Notes under the pieces: model-generated
Told to the model about the DNA's origin: nothing
Databases searched by the model: none
What the model saw: only the letters and a program-made list of their open reading frames with translations
Translations under genes and position numbers: made by a program
Shown here: in pieces, positions 1 to 9,500 of the stretch
Numbering within the stretch: position 1 is the first letter of the stretch
How the letters are laid out: each line of letters starts with the position of its first letter
IMG/VR virus record: IMGVR_UViG_3300023059_000291
Span: 1-44,713 of that record
Length of the DNA stretch: 44,713 nt
Strand: one strand, 5' to 3'
Origin: a virus
Lineage: Duplodnaviria; Caudoviricetes

Positions 1-657
1 ATGTGTGCCAATTATGAACCTATCAGTAAAGATCATGTTCACCTTTTAGATCTCTTTGAACCAACTTTCGATTATAAGAAAGATGTTTATCCAGGTTATG
101 ACTGCCCTCTTATATTTTCTAAAGATGGCCACATTGAATGGCGACAAGTAAAGTTCGGCATGATTCCACCATGGAACCATGATTTAAAGTTTTCAAAGTA
201 TACCTACAATGCCAGAACTGAAACTGTTGATAAAAAACCTAGCTTTCGCCACGCATGGTCTAAAAGCCAATTCGCGCTAATACCTGTAGAAAAAATTTAT
301 GAGCCTAGATATTTGAATGGCAAAGCGGAAAGATGGGGAATATATCGCGAAGACGGCTTACCTTTTACAGTTGCTGCTATTTATGATTCGACTGTGATTG
401 ATGGGCAGCAAGTAAGATCTATGTCGATGCTGACAATTAATGCTGATAATCACCCTTTCATGTCACAGTTTCATAAACCAGAAGATGAGAAAAGATCTAT
501 CATCGTTATTCCTGAAGAGTATCGGGAAGACTGGCTAAACTGCCAAAATGAAGATGCTAATCAATTTTTCTTTGAAATGCCACTTGGTGAATTTGCTGCC
601 AACTATTTTCCTAAACCAAATAAAAAACCGCCTGCCCCAGCAAACGGTTCTAATTAG
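1..657 (+). CDS. yedK: SOS response-associated peptidase (SRAP/YedK/HMCES family), abasic-site protecting protein
   Basis: N-terminal Met-Cys, YNARTET motif, YE and conserved His (FHKP); lies next to umuDC as is typical for SRAP genes. Confidence 0.9.
   Translation: MCANYEPISKDHVHLLDLFEPTFDYKKDVYPGYDCPLIFSKDGHIEWRQVKFGMIPPWNHDLKFSKYTYNARTETVDKKPSFRHAWSKSQFALIPVEKIYEPRYLNGKAERWGIYREDGLPFTVAAIYDSTVIDGQQVRSMSMLTINADNHPFMSQFHKPEDEKRSIIVIPEEYREDWLNCQNEDANQFFFEMPLGEFAANYFPKPNKKPPAPANGSN
622..649 (-). terminator. Intrinsic terminator for the small-peptide transcript
   Basis: Minus strand AACCGTTTGC-TGGG-GCAGGCGGTT followed by a T-run; the stem needs G-U pairs that form only on the minus strand. 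Confidence 0.7.
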
Positions 658-680
658 TCTTAAATTAAAATATTAATACA

Positions 681-764
681 TTAACACATAATAAAATCAG
701 CTACTTGAATTACGTCAGCTATTAAGCTTAGTAATTTCACGCCGAAGATAATTATCTTCGTCAT
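681..764 (-). CDS. 27-aa hydrophobic peptide MTKIIIFGVKLLSLIADVIQVADFIMC, TisB/DinQ-like type I toxin candidate
   Basis: Translated by hand; AAAAGGAG SD (771-778) 6 nt before ATG; single amphipathic helix; downstream terminator; absent from the ORF track. Confidence 0.75.
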   Translation of the reverse strand: MTKIIIFGVKLLSLIADVIQVADFIMC

Positions 765-1120
765 AGCAATCTCCTTTTAAAGAGACATTGCCTTGTGCCA
801 TGTTTTGCGTTTTAATACATCTAATGCATAACGAAAGTCGTCATCGGTAAACGCGTCGTTGGTAGCGTCGCAGTTACACTCGTAAAAGCTGATCGTATCG
901 CAACATCAGTCAGCAGTAGTAAGCATTGTTGGTAGCATTGCTCTCTACTGTAAATGGTATGACACAAGTCAATGCAGGTTTATATTCCTCCCCCAGTCGA
1001 TGTTCCCGGTAAAGAATTTTCGACTGTGTGGGGGTTTCAAAATTCCTTCTCAACTTCCCACTTCTGCTGTCGTGGTTATCTAAAAAGGATAAACACAAGA
1101 AATAAAATCTATCCTTGTGT
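765..1120 (-). ncRNA. Long structured 5' leader of the peptide gene, with possible overlapping + strand antisense RNA
   Basis: Hairpins at about 766-791 (covers SD), 847-877, 913-949, 991-1034 and 1093-1120; two share the loop CTACCAA/TTGGTAG with compensatory stem changes. Confidence 0.6.
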
Positions 1121-1126
1121 GTAATC

Positions 1127-1155
1127 AAGATATGAGATTTCCATCTATATATCAA
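1127..1155 (-). promoter_or_regulatory. Putative sigma70 promoter for the leader/peptide transcript
   Basis: Minus strand TTGATA-N17-TATCTT, inside an inverted repeat TCAAGAT...ATCTTGA (1125-1161). Confidence 0.45.
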
Positions 1156-1240
1156 TCTTGACTTTTTACTTATTTTTCAACTGTATGATTGATAAAGAGA
1201 TAGCATGGCAAAGCTATTAAAAAACATTTATAGATAAGTT

Positions 1241-1435
1241 TGTGGATAACCCTATAATCAAGAACTTAGATACAAATAGTTCTTGAAGTGACTCTTTTTT
1301 TTATAATTTTTTTTGTTACTTTTTTCATTCTCTAACTCCAAGTTTACAATGTAAATGTGTGTATATAGAGAATTATTTTCTGACCAAATGCACAGTAAGA
1401 CACGTCAATTTTTGACTTCTACTTGTTTATCCACA
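1241..1435. promoter_or_regulatory. Two inverted perfect DnaA boxes
   Basis: TGTGGATAA at 1241-1249 and TTATCCACA at 1427-1435 flank an AT-rich spacer. Confidence 0.5.
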
Positions 1436-1474
1436 GATTTTTAAATTTGAAATTAAGCCAAGCTCTAGCATATC

Positions 1475-1499
1475 ATTTGATTCTGTAACGAAATCAAAT
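1475..1499. promoter_or_regulatory. UmuDAb-type DNA-damage operator upstream of umuD
   Basis: ATTTGATT-CTGTAACGA-AATCAAAT palindrome; TTGAT-N11-ATCAA with TGTAAC core resembles the recalled Acinetobacter UmuDAb site TTGAAAATGTAACTTTTTCAA. Confidence 0.75.
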
Positions 1500-1512
1500 C
1501 AAGGGGAATGCT

Positions 1513-2013
1513 ATGAGTGATATTGTACCGTCCATCATTGAGATAAAGCACTATCTCAATCAATCTATTGTTTTAGCTGATGTTATCTCAATTAAGCTCA
1601 TAATTCCTTCCACTCAAATGTTAATTCCTTACGCATTAGAAAAAATTAATGCTGGCTTCCCCTCTCCTGCACAAGACTATATAGACAAAGCGCTCGATAT
1701 GAACGAGCACTTAATAAAAAATGAAACTGCTACGTTTATTGTCAAAGTCGCTTCACTCTCAATGCTCAACGCTGGCATCGATATTGATGACGAGCTCATT
1801 GTTGATCGTAGCTTAGATGCTAAACACGGCGATATTGTCGTGGCACTAATCGATAATGATTTTACTGTTAAGCGCCTAATGATCGATGAAAAAGGCCAAT
1901 GGCTCAAAGCCGAAAACCCAGATTATAAAAATATCTATCTACAAGAAGGCCAGGAACTAATTATCTGGGGCGTTGTTACATGCATTATTAAAATGATAAG
2001 AAATAAGTCATGA
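1513..2013 (+). CDS. umuD: DNA polymerase V subunit UmuD (S24 peptidase)
   Basis: [10 protein letters not shown] cleavage motif, SM catalytic Ser, TVKRL catalytic Lys; overlaps umuC start. Confidence 0.95.
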
Positions 2014-3308
2014 AACATGAGAACAAAGTCTTTTTCTTGATTGACGTCAATAACATGTACGTTTCATGTGAGAGAGTCTTTGATCCCAGTTTGAACAATA
2101 AGCCTGTGATTGTTCTGAGCAACAATGATGGTTGTGCTGTGGCGCGCAGCAATGAATCAAAAGCGTTAGGCATTAAAATGGGTGTGCCGCTTTTCCAAAT
2201 CAAAGATATTGTTAAGCAACACAATGTAATTGTACTTTCAAGCAATTATGCAATGTATGCAGAAATGTCGAGACGTTTTCATAAGATACTTGCTTCCCAT
2301 GTAACAGGTGAAGAAGTTGAGCCCTACTCAATAGATGAATGCTTTGTTGATTTCACAGCTTATGAGAAACACTTTGATTTAGAAAAGGTTGGCCAAGAGA
2401 TGCGCCAACAAATTTGGAAATGGCTGGGCTTACCAGTTTGCGTCGGTATTGGCAGAAGTAAAACGGAATCAAAAATTGCAAATCATATTGCTAAAAAGAA
2501 CCCCGGCTTTAACAGCGTGTGCGATCTAGTATCCATGGATCCGTGCAATAAAGAGTATTACTTTGCTCAAATAGACGCTTCTGAAGTTTGGGGTGTTGGC
2601 CGTAAGCACTCAAAAAAGTTGCAAAGCATGGGAATTAATACAGTGCTTGATTTAGCCTGTGCTGAACCTCGAGAGATGCAAAAGAAATTTTCGATTGTCA
2701 TGGCTCGCACGATCTACGAGCTGCAAGGTATCTCATGCATTGAGATAGAACACACTCCCCCTTCAAAAAAACAAATTGTCGCTTCAAGGTCTTTCGGTGG
2801 TCGCGTAACTGAATTAACAGATCTAAAAGAAGCGATATCAATGTATGCGCAAGATGCATGTAAGCGGTTGAGAGATGAAGAGCTTTTATGTGGATGTATG
2901 ATTGCTTTCGTTCAGTCAAACCCTTTTGACCCAAATGTCCCTTTTTATAATAAGTCGATTACAGGTTCGTTTTCTGAGCCCACAGATTGCGCTATCGATT
3001 TCGTCAAAGCAGCGACAAGAATGTTGAACGATATCTATAAAGAAGGAATTAAATATAAGAAATGCGGTGTTGTGCTGACTTGTCTAGAACCAAAGTCTGG
3101 CCATACTTATGATCTCTTAACCGACTTTGCGCACATAGAGAAAAAGGAATATTTGATGAAAGCTATGGATGGTATCCATAGTAAATTTGGAAAGAAAAAA
3201 ATCAGTGTCGGACCTTGTTTTGTTCCAAATCGGAATTGGTCTATGTCGCGAGATAAGCTTAGTAGAAATCCGTTTAAGTGGGGTGAGTTATTGAAAATAT
3301 ATAATTAA
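2010..3308 (+). CDS. umuC: DNA polymerase V subunit UmuC (Y-family)
   Basis: [29 protein letters not shown] and SRSFG motifs; C-terminal WSM..LS. Confidence 0.97.
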
Positions 3309-3381: not shown

Positions 3382-3906
3382 CTATAACTTTTTTAAATCA
3401 AACTCCCTCAAAATTGTAGAGGCAAGTAATTGAACAGATAAATAGTCATACTCACTAAGATGAGGGTGAATTTTTGGTTCCCAATATCTACCATGGGCTA
3501 ACCAATTACGATAATCTAATGCCTTTTGAAACTTATCTATTAATGGTTTATTAGCAGGATAAGAAGCTTTCCATGCTTTTAAAATATCATCGACTAAAGA
3601 TGCTTTAGTTCCTTTTTGGTTATAAATTTTTCTTAAGCTTTTAGACAATTCATCCTTTAATTTCTTTTGGCGGCGTATTAAATAATCAATTTTAAAACTT
3701 GCTTCTAATAGAGTTAAAAACTCTAATGAAATCATACGCTCCAAACATCTTAGGTGGTCTTTGCGTTCTTGATGCAACTCAGTCCGTGAATATCCAATAA
3801 AATATCCACTCTTCTCATCAAAGTAATAATTTAAAGATGTAAGACTATGAAAGTAAAATTGTTCTATTTCTTCAATTGTAGAATGTTGATTTGAAAATTT
3901 AATCAT
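3382..3906 (-). CDS. HEPN-domain protein (predicted RNase)
   Basis: Helical protein with Rx4H motif RNWLAH and an upstream conserved Glu (LLEA); AT-rich; 4 nt from upstream gene. Confidence 0.7.
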   Translation of the reverse strand: MIKFSNQHSTIEEIEQFYFHSLTSLNYYFDEKSGYFIGYSRTELHQERKDHLRCLERMISLEFLTLLEASFKIDYLIRRQKKLKDELSKSLRKIYNQKGTKASLVDDILKAWKASYPANKPLIDKFQKALDYRNWLAHGRYWEPKIHPHLSEYDYLSVQLLASTILREFDLKKL

Positions 3907-3910
3907 TTCA

Positions 3911-4444
3911 TTAATTCACTAATCCCATTAACGATGCAAAAAAATTACTTTCATTAAATTCTATAAATTTTACGCCAGAAGCATTTCGATCGATTATTTT
4001 CCACGTCCAATTAACTTTATTTAAAGGTTCATGTTTTTCATTATCAGAAAGAACTTTAAAACTTATATTGAATCCATTTGAATTTATATCGGTTAAAATA
4101 AATTTTACAGAACCTTTTGGTCCGCTTAAGTCAATTCTTCCTTTGGTTCCTATCAACAACGTACCGATTGGATCAAGTGTAAGTGTTGCTCCTGCTAAAG
4201 AAATATCCATTTTATTAACGATATAGGATCCGATATGATCTTCAGTAATATTTTTTTCACTAAGTGAAATAGTTATAGATCCTTGATCAATATAAGGTTT
4301 TAACCATTCTTTTACTTGATTATAAAAAAATTCAATGAATTCTAACCATTCTTGCTTCTGCTTTTCCCAATCAATATCATTTTCTTCTCTGTTATATTTA
4401 TTTGCATTATCCTTCAAAAATTTTTCGAAATCTTTTCTGCTCAT
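3911..4444 (-). CDS. Hypothetical protein, operon partner of HEPN gene
   Basis: 177-aa ORF, N-terminal helix then beta-rich region (LDPIGTLLIGTKGRIDL); tightly coupled to 3382-3906. Confidence 0.7.
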   Translation of the reverse strand: MSRKDFEKFLKDNANKYNREENDIDWEKQKQEWLEFIEFFYNQVKEWLKPYIDQGSITISLSEKNITEDHIGSYIVNKMDISLAGATLTLDPIGTLLIGTKGRIDLSGPKGSVKFILTDINSNGFNISFKVLSDNEKHEPLNKVNWTWKIIDRNASGVKFIEFNESNFFASLMGLVN

Positions 4445-4684
4445 TTCTGTGCTCTATGATTAAAAATAGTTAAAGCATATACTTTATCTTCAAATAAAAC
4501 TAGTTTGTTCAAAGGCATAAAAGTAAACAATGAAAAAATCAGATGATGTTCGGATGTCGAAAATCTTTGTTTTATTCTATATAAATACATTTAATTATCC
4601 CATGTTGCAAATTAAATAATTATAAGGAAAGGCACGAATCTCTGAGCTCAAAATGGTATCTATTTTAGGTGTAGTTGGTGAAAA

Positions 4685-5284
4685 ATGAATAGTAAGAATG
4701 AAAAGTTAGTAGTAGTAGTATTTTGGGGAGTCGTTGCCTACAGCGTGGCACTTCTAACCTACTGTACTTTTAAAAATTTTTATAATTTATCTGCTGATTT
4801 TATATCTGCATTTGGCTCTATACTAGGAGCATGTGCTGCATTTTTTGCAGCCTTTGTAGCTGCATATTTATTTAATGATTGGAAATCTACTGCTAATTAT
4901 GAACAAAACAAAGAAATTATAGATAAATTTGAGAGCACATATATAGATGTTAAAATTATATTAGTCTCACTCAAAGATCGAGCATTGATAGCAAACTCAC
5001 AAAGTCCTACTATAAGAGTAGAACTATTCGATTCTGTTTCCGCATCATTAACTAAACTATACTATCTTCAACAAAAATTAGAAGATCATTTTAAGATAGA
5101 ACAAGAAGATACTCTTTGGACTGAACTTGAACAAATTTTACAAAGGTATATTGAACTATTAGATTTTAATACACCCTTTACTCAAAATTGGATTAAGAAT
5201 GAAACAAAACTAATTTCTGAACTAAACGCCCTCCATCCAAAAATCAATAAGGCTTTAAGAGAATTAAATCCAATTACCGATTGA
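4685..5284 (+). CDS. Inner-membrane moron protein (two N-terminal TM helices plus helical cytoplasmic domain)
   Basis: Two hydrophobic segments ending in AAYLFNDWK; opposite orientation to the late operon. Confidence 0.75.
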   Translation: MNSKNEKLVVVVFWGVVAYSVALLTYCTFKNFYNLSADFISAFGSILGACAAFFAAFVAAYLFNDWKSTANYEQNKEIIDKFESTYIDVKIILVSLKDRALIANSQSPTIRVELFDSVSASLTKLYYLQQKLEDHFKIEQEDTLWTELEQILQRYIELLDFNTPFTQNWIKNETKLISELNALHPKINKALRELNPITD

Positions 5285-6519: not shown

Positions 6520-9500
6520 TTAAAGGGTTTGTAGGATTCTACCTCCATTTATCAATTTAGTTGTGAGTGGCGCTATTCCGACAATTGCTGTTCCACCCGC
6601 TCCTGGCTGGCCTTCAGTTGTGCCATGGTAATTCCAGTTCGAAGTACCACTATTTGTCGACTTGGTACCACGTTGCCCCCAGCCACCTCCATCACCAGAT
6701 AAAGGTGATACATAGCGGTCGCTATTTGGAGTTCGGTAGCCTTTCCCTGGCGTAACTGCATCAGCATCAGTGACTTTTACAACCAACAAATAGCCACCGT
6801 TCAAGTACCAGCGCCAATCCTGAGTATCATTGTAAATTGGCTGACCTGTCATAACCCGTCCAAAAGGTGCACCAGCTCCACCAGGTACTCCTTGAACTCC
6901 ATAAGTTAATTCTGTGTAGATACCACTTGGTGTAGCCCCGCCTCCAGAGCCACCTCTAGCTAAAGTGCCTCCGTCAATAATCAGATTCAACTTGCTGTGC
7001 CGGTTCATTAAACCAGGTGCACCTTGGAACCCATCACGGCGAGTTTTGGTAAAGTTGTAATCCGGATCACTAGACCACGCACCGAATGCAAGATGAGGCA
7101 AACCTCCATCGCCTCCCCGCCCAACCACTGAACCTTTAATCGTAAGATTTACAGTAAGACCAGGAGGAAACTCTCCTGTATCAATCGCTGGCAGTTCTTG
7201 GGCGGCAGGTACAATAAACTCCTGTTTTGCTGGACTAGAGTTATAGTCAAACTTATAAACCATTCGTGTTTCTGGTCGAAGTGAACTGGAACTCGAAACC
7301 AAAGCACCAGCTTCGACAATAAAGCTAATTTCACCGGTTGTTGGCAGGTCGCCTCGTTGCATCTGGTATAAGCGAGCCAAATTAATATCTAGCTGGTCAT
7401 AACGAATGTAAATCGGAGAATCATCAACTGGCACATCAATAAAATCTTTATCGTTGAGGTAATACCGAACATCGTAATTTACGGCCGTAATGGTATTAGA
7501 AAACTTATCAACTGGATCTTTCGTTGCTACCAGATAAGGTAATGACCCCTTTGTATCGTCATTAACTACTGTATAAATCGTATTAACGAAATCATCAGGA
7601 CTTAACTTTAATGCCCCATTTGGTAAGCGACCTAAAACAACCTTGTTCTTAGCAGATCCAGCAGTAACAGGAATCAAATCAACACTCCCATCACCCATTT
7701 GTAAATAAATCACGTAGCTCTTACCTGCTATGAAATCAACATCATGGCTCAATGTAAGAATTAAACCTTCTTGCTGAATTACATCACCGCTTTGATGGAT
7801 GCCATTTCGATAATCCGCTACAGCAATACGGTCACGTAAAACCAGTAATTCCGATTCTGGTGCTGCATCAAAGGTAATGGATTTGCGCTGAAAGCGGAGC
7901 TTGTTCCAAAGCCGGTACGCATTAAAACGGGCTTGCCATTTATTGCGCACACCTACCGATTTAACCTCTTTGGGGTTCTTGGCTCCCTTATCCGGCAAAT
8001 AAATATTTATACGGCTATCATCGGCCGGATCCGTATATTCATAGATCAACCCATCATAGTCATCCATCATGCCAAGCGTTAGATCATGCTTATAACTATC
8101 CGGAATGATATTCCTGAAATTAAACAGCAATACCGAGTTATCTGTTGGCCGTTCAAAGTAGATCTTTAGCTTATTGTTCTGTCGATATGCTGTACAAAAC
8201 ACAGCATCACAAAGATTAGTGACCAATTCTTCAAATGAAAGATTGGTGTCGTCAATCGTCGTACAGAACTCGGCTGCTAGAGGTGTACCAAAGTAATCGA
8301 CAATATGGTTATAAGTACGATAGATGTTTTCAATATCAATCTCGTCGATCGTGCGGCGGCCAATCTTGTCATCGAGCGCCATTGAAACCAGTGCATCTGC
8401 AAAGCTTGAAGTTGGAAATAACTCTGTCGTCATTGCTCCATTTTTATAGGTTGGCAACATCCGCTGAAGATCAAAATTGATCTTGCGCGACTTAACAGAT
8501 AAAGCTCCAGTCGTTGCATATGTACGTGCACGGAAAACCGTTTCATGTTCATACATCGTGCTTTGCAATGGAAATGCGCCGTATAGCGCTTGCCACTTCA
8601 CTTCATCAACTACAGTTGTCACTGCTGGGGTTGGTGTTAAACGTCGAGCACGTACACTACAGCGCCCCTGAAATGTGACCATATCGAGCGTTGCACCAAC
8701 AGTTTGCCGTGACTTAGCCGAACCCTTGAGAATGATCTGCTTTAGCATTGGGTTGCCAATAGCTGCACCTGATTCATTCACTGGAGTTACTTCAACTTCA
8801 ATGGTGACATTTACAGCCGCCTGATTACCTCCTGAAGAGACTGTATAAAGCCCATTATTCGCCACAAAGTTAAAGATGACACGACTACGTTCAAGGTTGT
8901 CCAGAATAAATGGACCGATCCACTTTTCACCAATGGATGAGAGTTTTGGAGATAAAGCACCTGTTTGCTGATTAGCGAGTTCTTTTAGCTTTAACCAGTT
9001 CGGATTTACTGCTGCCGGGTTAGATAAGGCCATTCGGTCATCAGCAACGGATAAGACACCGTACGTACCGTTTAAATCGTATGTTTGTCCGTTAAAAGTA
9101 AAAGAAGCATTAGAGATATCAACTCGGTCATTGCTGACAAACTTAGTCGTTAAATCGGTATTATTAGCAGCTGCTCGCAGGATCTCGTTTGGGTATGCAA
9201 ATTGAAGATAATTTGTGCCCTCTAAACTTTGAGTGTCAGCTGGTCGCAAGATCTGGCCATTCACTGAGTTTTGATGCTGAACAGTTAAAGGTGGCGTAGT
9301 AATTTCACTACCAAGCGAAAAATAAGGCTGTCCAGATATGATATCGACACCAGGTCGAAAGACTTCTACCGATGCACCAGCAATATCAACAATATTGGTT
9401 TCACCGTCATAAGCCCCTTTAATGTGATAGTGGCCGCGACCAATACATCCCACAAGATGCTCGACCTCGACGTTGTTTTCATAAACCTTGTAAGGAACTG

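What the first reader, a model, noticed from the sequence alone, without database searches (positions are those of the whole stretch)
847..949. Twin covarying hairpins with identical TTGGTAG/CTACCAA loops exactly 70 nt apart
Seen: GCG-T-CG-[TTGGTAG]-CG-T-CGC (853-871) and GCA-T-TG-[TTGGTAG]-CA-T-TGC (923-941). They share the loop and the internal mismatch, and differ by two compensatory base-pair changes; outer stems extend both (GTAA/TTAC, CAGTAG/CTACTG). This is direct evidence of selection on RNA or ssDNA structure. Known: UUGGUAG/CUACCAA are kissing-loop sequences of ColE1 RNA I/RNA II and UUGG fits the YUNR U-turn. Inference: a + strand antisense RNA (roughly 820-1037, ending at the 991-1034 stem plus TTT) recognises the toxin leader by loop-loop kissing, or the loops are tandem protein-binding sites.
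Basis: partly seen in the sequence, partly recalled or inferred. Interest (0 to 1): 0.8.

Follow-up and report, generated by a model that had tools for sequence, protein, structure and literature searches.

The report
ColE1-like twin-loop antitoxin, Acinetobacter prophage
Two hairpins with the same seven-base loop sit in the long leader of a small unannotated prophage gene, and are likely the recognition loops of an antisense RNA that would keep a predicted membrane-toxic peptide switched off, which would be a new type I toxin-antitoxin family in Acinetobacter prophages.

Summary
The twin hairpins are real (853-871, 923-941, 70 nt apart; 2 of 100 shuffles give any such twin). They lie in a module between SRAP and umuD, present in 16 of 80 related prophage loci. 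Its minus strand has a promoter-like site, a ~355-nt structured leader, a sequestered Shine-Dalgarno, a conserved 27-30 aa amphipathic ORF (764-681) and a terminator. Both stems covary across 13 homologues. The loops vary: identical twins in 4 of 13, one of which changed both loops together (TTGGAAG twice). ColE1 RNA I carries the same twin G-UUGGUAG-C loops, with no wider homology. A plus-strand promoter-like site (788-816) is conserved in 15 of 22 homologues, and RNA-library contigs from four soil metatranscriptomes cover about 832-1043 (strand unknown, weak evidence). Best reading (0.6): a type I toxin-antitoxin pair whose ~220-nt cis-antisense RNA binds the leader loop-to-loop and removes an upstream strand that loosens the Shine-Dalgarno hairpin, as described for dinQ/agrB. 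Toxicity, RNA strand and kissing are untested. No Rfam family and no curated protein family matched; look-ups of this scan's earlier findings showed nothing on this element.

The parts
847..877 (+). Hairpin H1, loop TTGGTAG at 859-865 (CUACCAA on the mRNA strand)
   Evidence: 4 of 9 pairs with two-sided change in 13 homologues
914..950 (+). Hairpin H2, loop TTGGTAG at 929-935; 7-nt loop kept in 13 of 13 leader homologues with varied sequence
990..1037 (+). Hairpin H3, a long stem at this position in all 22 homologues folded; likely 3' end of the antisense RNA, without a canonical U-run
   Evidence: not called as terminator
823..1043 (+). Putative cis-antisense RNA (antitoxin), ~220 nt, closed by helix 827-831 with 970-974; ends and strand inferred
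   Evidence: promoter-like site, plus-strand G-U wobbles in the closing helix and H3, RNA-library contigs within 832-1043 (strand not shown)
788..816 (+). Sigma70-like site TTGCCT-17-TTTAAT, predicted antisense promoter; lacks the -11 A
   Evidence: best plus-strand site at the same offset in 15 of 22 homologues, TTGCCA-17-AATAAT in the distant L222/L223 group
1127..1155 (-). Sigma70-like site TTGATA-17-TATCTT, predicted mRNA promoter (start near 1121); no UmuDAb box
   Evidence: flanking block CAATCTTGACTT conserved in the alignment except in L186/L194; it is the top-scoring minus-strand site in only 5 of 22
958..975 (-). Upstream 'activator' strand of the mRNA leader, predicted to pair with 801-785 and compete with the outer Shine-Dalgarno stem
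   Evidence: 11-bp consensus helix with G-U wobbles valid only on the minus strand; folding
766..801 (-). Anti-SD arm and hairpin that sequesters the AGGAG Shine-Dalgarno
   Evidence: SD core unpaired with probability at most 0.08 in all 9 transcript models; opening cost 5.7-12.3 kcal/mol in 22 full-length homologues
681..764 (-). 27-aa amphipathic hydrophobic ORF (predicted type I toxin), family motif D-x-x-Q-x-A-D, 27-30 aa
   Evidence: pN/pS 0.42 over 16 distinct cores
624..651 (-). Intrinsic-terminator-like hairpin ending the predicted mRNA
1..657 (+). Context: SRAP gene, left flank of the insertion slot
   Evidence: PF02586 E 1.2e-24
1477..1497 (+). Context: UmuDAb operator TTGA-N4-GTAAC-N4-TCAA in front of umuD (1513-2013)
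   Evidence: consensus from PMC11332147 passages

Best explanation
The hairpins lie in the long leader of a conserved 27-codon prophage gene and are likely the loop-loop recognition elements of a type I toxin-antitoxin pair, in which a predicted ~220-nt antisense RNA from the opposite strand would block translation of a predicted membrane-toxic peptide. Steps. (1) Shown by sequence and homologues: a minus-strand unit of promoter-like site, structured leader, sequestered Shine-Dalgarno, amphipathic ORF and terminator, inserted between SRAP and umuD. (2) Shown by covariation: H1, H2 and H3 stems are kept while loops drift. (3) Inferred: a plus-strand RNA 823-1043 is made and presents UUGGUAG loops to the CUACCAA loops of the mRNA, as RNA I does to RNA II. 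(4) Inferred from folding: duplex formation removes the upstream strand 975-958 from the anti-SD arm, so the Shine-Dalgarno hairpin closes further; RNase III cleavage of the long duplex may follow (established for other pairs, untested here). (5) Inferred: loop sequence gives specificity between related prophages; loss of the antisense RNA releases the peptide, serving prophage maintenance or abortive defence.
For: Module in 16 of 80 SRAP loci found without using the peptide; all 16 keep an intact ORF (15 ATG, 1 GTG). Peptide size, hydrophobicity (GRAVY 1.15-1.71) and helical moment (0.40-0.56) match TisB (1.62, 0.50) and DinQ (1.87, 0.42). Plus-strand structure: 11 of 36 pairs with two-sided change, covariation score reached by 0 of 500 shuffles, slid controls 29-44% paired against 97.6%. 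G-U wobbles favour the plus strand in the closing helix and outer H3 and the minus strand in the activator helix, as expected if both strands are RNAs. L240, 75% identical over the region (168 of 224), changed both loops to TTGGAAG; the distant L222/L223 pair shows the same TTGGAAG/TTGGTAG toggle in a single hairpin; cognate 7-nt loop duplexes are -7.4 and -7.2 kcal/mol against -2.7 and -2.9 across these two types. ColE1 RNA I has the same twin loops. Antisense promoter-like site in 15 of 22. RNA-library contigs identical to the window at 854-1043, 832-1006 and 850-1006 in 3 of 4 runs laid, and a variant allele with unchanged loops in 2 of 4. Blocking the antisense footprint raises the cost of opening the ribosome site in 17 of 22 full-length models. 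The same slot holds AbiH, PIN-like and caspase-like genes in other prophages.
Against: No experiment on toxicity, translation, strand or binding. Identical twin loops in only 4 of 13 leader homologues; three have H1 reduced to an AAAA loop and L217 carries the H2 loop inverted. The 13 sequences are about three or four lineages, so covariation counts are inflated by kinship. The antisense -10 lacks the -11 A, its -35 overlaps the anti-SD arm (so it is conserved for a second reason), and 7 of 22 homologues have no site at that offset. H3 has no U-run. Contigs cannot show strand, ends or level; two of them stop at 1006, the runs were picked for holding 600-1300, may be one campaign, and no silent-region or DNA control was obtained. 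The footprint effect is reversed or nil in 5 of 22, and blocking the activator alone raises the cost in only 9 of the 13 leader homologues. In the window's full-length mRNA the activator helix has probability only 0.1-0.3. Similarity to TisB is marginal (74 of 2000 shuffles score as high; DinQ 171 of 2000). pN/pS is biased down for loci found by a peptide-derived pattern.
Confidence: 0.6

Rival explanations
1. The module is a leader-controlled small gene without an antisense RNA: the abundant RNA is a processed piece of the minus-strand leader, and the twin loops are tandem binding sites for a host or phage RNA-binding protein (or another ligand) that flips the Shine-Dalgarno switch.
For: Tandem identical loops suit a dimeric protein; both loops changed together in L240; weak antisense promoter and no U-tail; contigs give no strand; H1 and H2 also fold on the minus strand.
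Against: Loop sequence drifts across the family and is inverted in L217 while stems and 7-nt size stay, which a fixed host protein would not allow; plus-strand-only G-U wobbles in the closing helix and H3; contig cover does not match the span closed by the mRNA's own long helix (975-785).
Confidence: 0.14
2. The antisense RNA and loops work as in the best reading, but the peptide is not a toxin (for instance a superinfection-exclusion or membrane-modulating peptide), or the plus-strand RNA acts mainly in trans on other phage or host mRNAs, as C4-type RNAs do.
For: No curated toxin family matches; marginal TisB/DinQ similarity; A. baumannii has many C4-like RNAs with variable loops (PMC5320573 passages).
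Against: No C4 or other Rfam match in the window or 9 homologous loci; the permanently sequestered SD and ~300-355 nt leader are the usual safeguards of toxic peptides; the complementary heptamer occurs elsewhere in the window only at 9308, 18957, 29607 and 13388 (not examined further).
Confidence: 0.16
3. The stems matter but the identity of the two loops is incidental, from a local duplication or conversion event with no function.
For: 9 of 13 homologues lack identical twins; the concerted change in L240 is a single event that conversion between the repeats could produce.
Against: Stems of H1 and H2 differ by two compensated pairs while the loops are identical; same twin in ColE1 RNA I; partial twins (TCAG in both loops) in L228, L232, L251.
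Confidence: 0.08
4. The hairpins act in single-stranded DNA (priming, packaging or damage-response signal next to SRAP and umuDC).
For: Neighbourhood of ssDNA-acting genes.
Against: G-U type variation on both strands, fixed position in the leader of a conserved ORF, RNA-library contigs over the element, absence from 64 of 80 related loci.
Confidence: 0.02

Closest known systems
dinQ/agrB and dql family (E. coli; PMC5066626, abstract and sections 7 and 9 read)
   Same: 27-aa amphipathic peptide; long structured 5' UTR; mutually exclusive pairings open or close the SD hairpin; antisense binding far upstream closes it; SOS neighbourhood.
   Different: agrB is encoded upstream and does not overlap the mRNA (PMC8594479 passage), here the predicted antisense lies inside the leader; no detectable sequence family link; no UmuDAb box at the peptide promoter, whereas dinQ is LexA-controlled (recalled).
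Hok/Sok and Ldr/Rdl (organisation from PMC8594479 passage)
   Same: Antisense RNA fully inside the mRNA and 5' of the ORF.
   Different: Antisense predicted ~220 nt with three stem-loops (Sok and Rdl are about 65 nt, recalled); no conserved mok/ldrX-like overlapping leader ORF (801-715 is kept in L184 only among the 18 loci); 3' trimming does not open the ribosome site in the models; no Pfam, NCBIfam or Rfam match.
ColE1 RNA I / RNA II (Rfam RF00106; PMC9458437 and PMC4555960 passages)
   Same: Two stem-loops with the identical G-UUGGUAG-C loop on the antisense strand; loop changes set compatibility in ColE1.
   Different: No homology beyond an 11-nt match (14 of 1000 shuffles reach it); no RNAI hit; loops 70 nt apart against 33; target is a peptide mRNA leader, not a replication primer; no origin or Rop noticed nearby.
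tisB/istR and timP/timR (PMC13000454 abstract)
   Same: TisB-like peptide physico-chemistry and a Q-x-x-D pattern; in timP a long-range pairing destabilises the SD stem.
   Different: Their antitoxins are encoded outside the mRNA; pseudoknots were not tested here.

Membership tests
Type I toxin-antitoxin system (class) | Small (20-60 aa) hydrophobic ORF under selection | tested here: met
Type I toxin-antitoxin system (class) | mRNA with sequestered ribosome binding site, own promoter and terminator | tested here: met
   in silico only:
Type I toxin-antitoxin system (class) | Antisense RNA is transcribed | tested here: inconclusive
   promoter-like site in 15 of 22; RNA-library contigs without strand
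Type I toxin-antitoxin system (class) | Peptide is toxic and the antisense RNA neutralises it | not testable with these tools
   needs expression and rescue assays
DinQ/AgrB, TisB/IstR families | Peptide and RNA match the family models | tested here: not met
   no Pfam/NCBIfam hit up to E 5 for these families; no Rfam hit; model R1 finds nothing in the E. coli tisB and dinQ loci
DinQ/AgrB, TisB/IstR families | Antitoxin encoded upstream, not overlapping the mRNA | tested here: inconclusive
   candidate antisense overlaps the leader; an additional upstream RNA was not excluded (one low-depth contig at 1081-1231 in X2)
DinQ/AgrB, TisB/IstR families | SOS operator at the toxin promoter | tested here: not met
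   UmuDAb box or half-box found only 570-785 nt from the ORF anchor, at the umuD promoter, in 21 of 22; EppR and other damage regulators not tested
Hok/Sok, Ldr/Rdl families | Antisense inside the leader, 5' of the ORF | tested here: met
   by position of the predicted RNA, 823-1043 against ORF 764-681
Hok/Sok, Ldr/Rdl families | Family peptide, Sok/Rdl RNA, conserved overlapping leader ORF | tested here: not met
ColE1 RNA I (RF00106) | Score above the Rfam threshold; overlap with a replication primer | tested here: not met
ColE1 RNA I (RF00106) | Works by loop-loop kissing of 7-nt loops | not testable with these tools
   loops identical to RNA I and largely unpaired on the mRNA strand (0.64-1.0); binding kinetics needed
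C4 antisense RNA system | C4 cloverleaf RNA and a/b target sites | tested here: not met
   no C4 or c4-a1b1 match in the window or 9 loci; host chromosome not available

The most novel reading that the evidence does not exclude
The antitoxin has converged on the ColE1 RNA I loop code, and its UGGN loops double as a sensor: uncharged tRNA 3' ends (NCCA), or the antisense RNA or leader of a rival prophage, titrate the loops and release the toxin. The UUGGUAG/UUGGAAG toggle, seen independently in two distant subfamilies and in both loops at once, falls on the base that would read the tRNA discriminator (pairing logic recalled from T-box riboswitches; tRNA interference with RNA I/II is described in PMC4555960 passages). 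[quoted passage not shown] Against: 9 of 13 leader homologues lack UGG in these loops.
Probability: 0.07. Interest if true: 0.88.

Novelty: new variant of a known kind. Interest (0 to 1): 0.58.

Why it matters
I found no type I toxin-antitoxin family described for Acinetobacter in the searches run; the 2010 survey lists 0 type I loci of known families for A. baumannii ACICU. This module gives a compact, testable candidate in a variable cargo slot of prophages that elsewhere holds abortive-infection-type genes. It joins a dinQ-like SD switch, a Hok/Ldr-like gene layout and RNA I-like twin loops, and natural loop alleles (UUGGUAG, UUGGAAG, UUGUCAG, an inverted loop) provide ready-made specificity tests for how kissing loops evolve.

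Tried and rejected
Rfam: no relevant family in 1-3000, the whole window or 9 homologous loci (MicF at E 3.7 is a terminator-driven chance hit). blastn of 640-1180 against plasmids and annotated phages: no match. Twin-loop pattern scan of viral contigs gave 120 loci, of which blastn tied only 2 (L078, L079) to this element; the rest were not examined. Metagenome pattern scan: 8 of 14 hits were the module, 6 chance. Promoter-pattern scan added no new module copies that model R1 recognised (6 of its 12 loci were already-known contigs). Hok-like 3' fold-back activation: the window's full-length fold pairs 976-968 with 685-677, but this overlaps the stop codon, is not in the consensus fold and trimming to the stop does not lower the opening cost consistently: rejected as a family mechanism. 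mok-like ORF 801-715 and ORFs 967-821, 1040-969, 1155-910, 972-1124: not conserved or without Pfam match. SOS control by UmuDAb: no box at the peptide promoter. L229 and L235 were dropped from counts as duplicates of L228 over the region; L141, L160, L200 carry unrelated inserts. No structure or complex prediction was run.

Full report
Setting. The window is an IMG/VR provirus record. Its SRAP protein is 93% identical to those of Acinetobacter phage records, so the host is taken to be Acinetobacter. The finding lies between SRAP (1-657) and umuD/umuC (1513-3308).

Observation. The two hairpins, their identical TTGGTAG loops, the shared T-T mismatch, the two compensated pairs, the 70-nt spacing and the outer stems are all present. 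A blind twin-hairpin scan finds 2 such pairs in the window (this one and an AT-rich one) and any pair in 2 of 100 shuffles.

The slot. Of 80 viral loci with a close SRAP relative, most have about 190 nt between SRAP and umuD, and 16 carry a relative of this module. Other loci carry unrelated genes there, among them an AbiH protein, two PIN_8 proteins and a caspase-like protein (4 of 7 tested had a Pfam or PADLOC hit). All 20 viral and 8 metagenomic copies found by a peptide-derived DNA pattern lie between SRAP and umuD. The module is thus exchangeable cargo in a slot that also takes defence-type genes (inference).

The minus-strand unit. A promoter-like site (1155-1127), a leader of about 355 nt, an AGGAG Shine-Dalgarno, a 27-codon ORF (764-681) and a terminator (651-624) follow each other. 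The ORF is intact in all 16 copies found through SRAP alone, has invariant D-x-x-Q-x-A-D residues, pooled pN/pS of 0.42 (part of the set was found through the peptide, which biases this), and hydrophobicity and helical moment like TisB and DinQ fetched from E. coli K-12. Sequence similarity to either is marginal (74 and 171 of 2000 shuffles). Pfam and NCBIfam give no relevant family; PHROGs gives one unannotated family (phrog_37266) for 2 of 11 members; 2 of 6 peptides are in the protein collection, unnamed. The SD core is paired in all 9 transcript models. An upstream strand (975-959) can pair with the anti-SD arm (801-785); the consensus fold of 13 homologues keeps 11 such pairs with G-U wobbles that work only on the minus strand. 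In the window this helix dominates in 3'-short transcripts (0.7-0.98) and is minor in the full-length one (0.1-0.3). The UmuDAb operator (consensus from passages of PMC11332147) is found at the umuD promoter, not at the peptide promoter.

The hairpins in homologues. On the plus strand, 13 leader-homologous sequences share a closing helix, H1, H2 and H3; 11 of 36 pairs show two-sided changes, 97.6% of cells pair, and slid controls pair 29-44%. These sequences are only three or four lineages, so this is good but not overwhelming. The loops behave differently: TTGGTAG twice in the window, L224, L225; TTGGAAG twice in L240 (75% identical over the region, from the same metagenome as a copy of the window); related but unequal loops in L228, L232, L251, L221, L123; H1 cut to AAAA in three; H2 inverted in L217. 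The distant pair L222/L223 has one hairpin with TTGGAAG or TTGGTAG. Seven further homologues have a shorter, AT-rich leader that keeps H3 but not recognisable H1/H2. Conserved stems with drifting, sometimes inverted 7-nt loops are what sense-antisense recognition predicts, since both partners change with one mutation (inference).

ColE1 parallel. The RNA I gene of ColE1 matches RF00106 and holds GTTGGTAGC in two loops. The likeness ends at 11 nt and Rfam gives no RNAI hit here, so this is convergence or a shared loop optimum, not membership. Passages of PMC9458437 state that RNA I loop changes alter compatibility, and passages of PMC4555960 that uncharged tRNA can interfere with RNA I/II pairing.

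Is there an antisense RNA? TTGCCT-17-TTTAAT (788-816) is the best plus-strand site at the same offset in 13 of 13 leader homologues and, as TTGCCA-17-AATAAT, in L222/L223; 7 of 22 lack it. It lacks the -11 A and its -35 doubles as anti-SD sequence. Seven RNA runs held part of 600-1300; four were laid on 1-2100. Contigs with no difference from the window cover 854-1043 (X1, depth 77), 832-1006 (X3) and 850-1006 (X4); a variant allele with 14-16 differences and unchanged loops covers 840-977 (X2) and 840-1004 (X3). X2 also has low-depth pieces elsewhere. Contigs show neither strand, ends nor level, the runs were chosen for holding this stretch and may be one campaign, and a silent-region control is lacking, so this is a weak hint that fits a 823-1043 RNA. 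H3 is not a canonical terminator.

Mechanism. Forcing the antisense footprint out of the mRNA fold raises the cost of opening the ribosome site in 17 of 22 homologues (window 12.3 to 15.0 kcal/mol) and lowers or leaves it in 5. This matches the published dinQ/agrB logic, where antisense binding upstream closes the SD hairpin (PMC5066626, abstract and sections 7, 9), and the long-range SD-opening pairing of timP (PMC13000454 abstract). The gene layout, antisense inside the leader and 5' of the ORF, is that of Hok/Sok and Ldr/Rdl (PMC8594479 passage). A hok-like 3' trimming step was tested and not supported. How the still-closed site is translated (standby site, processing) is open. I put the cis-antisense type I reading with loop-loop recognition at 0.6; rivals are a non-toxic peptide or trans-acting RNA (0.16), protein-binding loops on a processed leader (0.14), incidental loop identity (0.08) and ssDNA structure (0.02).

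Novelty. Ten literature searches (listings only unless named) showed no description of this module. Term look-ups in the two Acinetobacter sRNA surveys found no 'toxin' in their main text (PMC5320573, PMC6182133; supplements not read). T1TAdb's main text does not mention Acinetobacter (database not seen). In the supplements of PMC2887945, ACICU has 0 type I loci of known families, the peptide motifs searched do not occur in an Acinetobacter row, and the 8 Acinetobacter candidate rows I saw (32 of 54 term places) are 39-69 aa genes without SRAP or umu neighbours; one file was not searchable. PMC11951105, PMC12242105 and PMC2943612 were seen as passages. Earlier findings of this scan: nothing by sequence; four notes by words or place concern other elements. 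Verdict: a real, structured, probably transcribed element; a new variant of the type I toxin-antitoxin kind; interest 0.58.

Noticed in passing
window 657-1513 and loci L187, L189, L191, L196, L198, L201, L172, L182: The SRAP-umuD gap of Acinetobacter prophages is a cargo hotspot: about 190 nt in most, but AbiH, PIN_8, caspase-like and unknown genes in others.
   Followed up: partly
window 1477-1497: Exact UmuDAb operator in front of umuD; a full or half box is present in 21 of 22 homologues.
   Followed up: yes
window 1153-1179: Conserved block CAATCTTGACTTTT...TTTT(C/T)A overlapping the -35 of the peptide promoter in 20 of 22 homologues by eye; in the window it reads TTGA-N15-TCAA and could be an operator or a divergent promoter (TTGACT ... 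TATGAT).
   Followed up: no
L217 (= L126), H2: The H2 loop and inner stem are inverted relative to L240: a 25-nt stretch is identical on opposite strands, a natural hairpin micro-inversion.
   Followed up: partly
window 1038-1053 and homologues: A purine-rich AGGAG/GAAGG motif precedes H3 on the mRNA strand in all subfamilies (CCUCC/UUCC tail on the plus strand); followed by an ATG only in L222/L223. Possible standby or anti-SD element.
   Followed up: no
L225, L230, L221, L123, L232, L240: Leader type and peptide N-terminus are shuffled independently (same leader with different peptides and the reverse), pointing to recombination at the conserved anti-SD block.
   Followed up: no
window 3382-5284: Three low-GC genes of no known family (174, 177, 199 aa) between umuC and the endolysin; no Pfam or PADLOC match of note.
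   Followed up: partly
window 4778-4804: A second pair of hairpins with identical TTTTATA loops 20 nt apart inside an AT-rich gene; probably chance.
   Followed up: no
run contigs, window 840-1004: A second allele of the element (14-16 differences, both loops unchanged) is present in two RNA runs and is not among the DNA loci fetched.
   Followed up: partly
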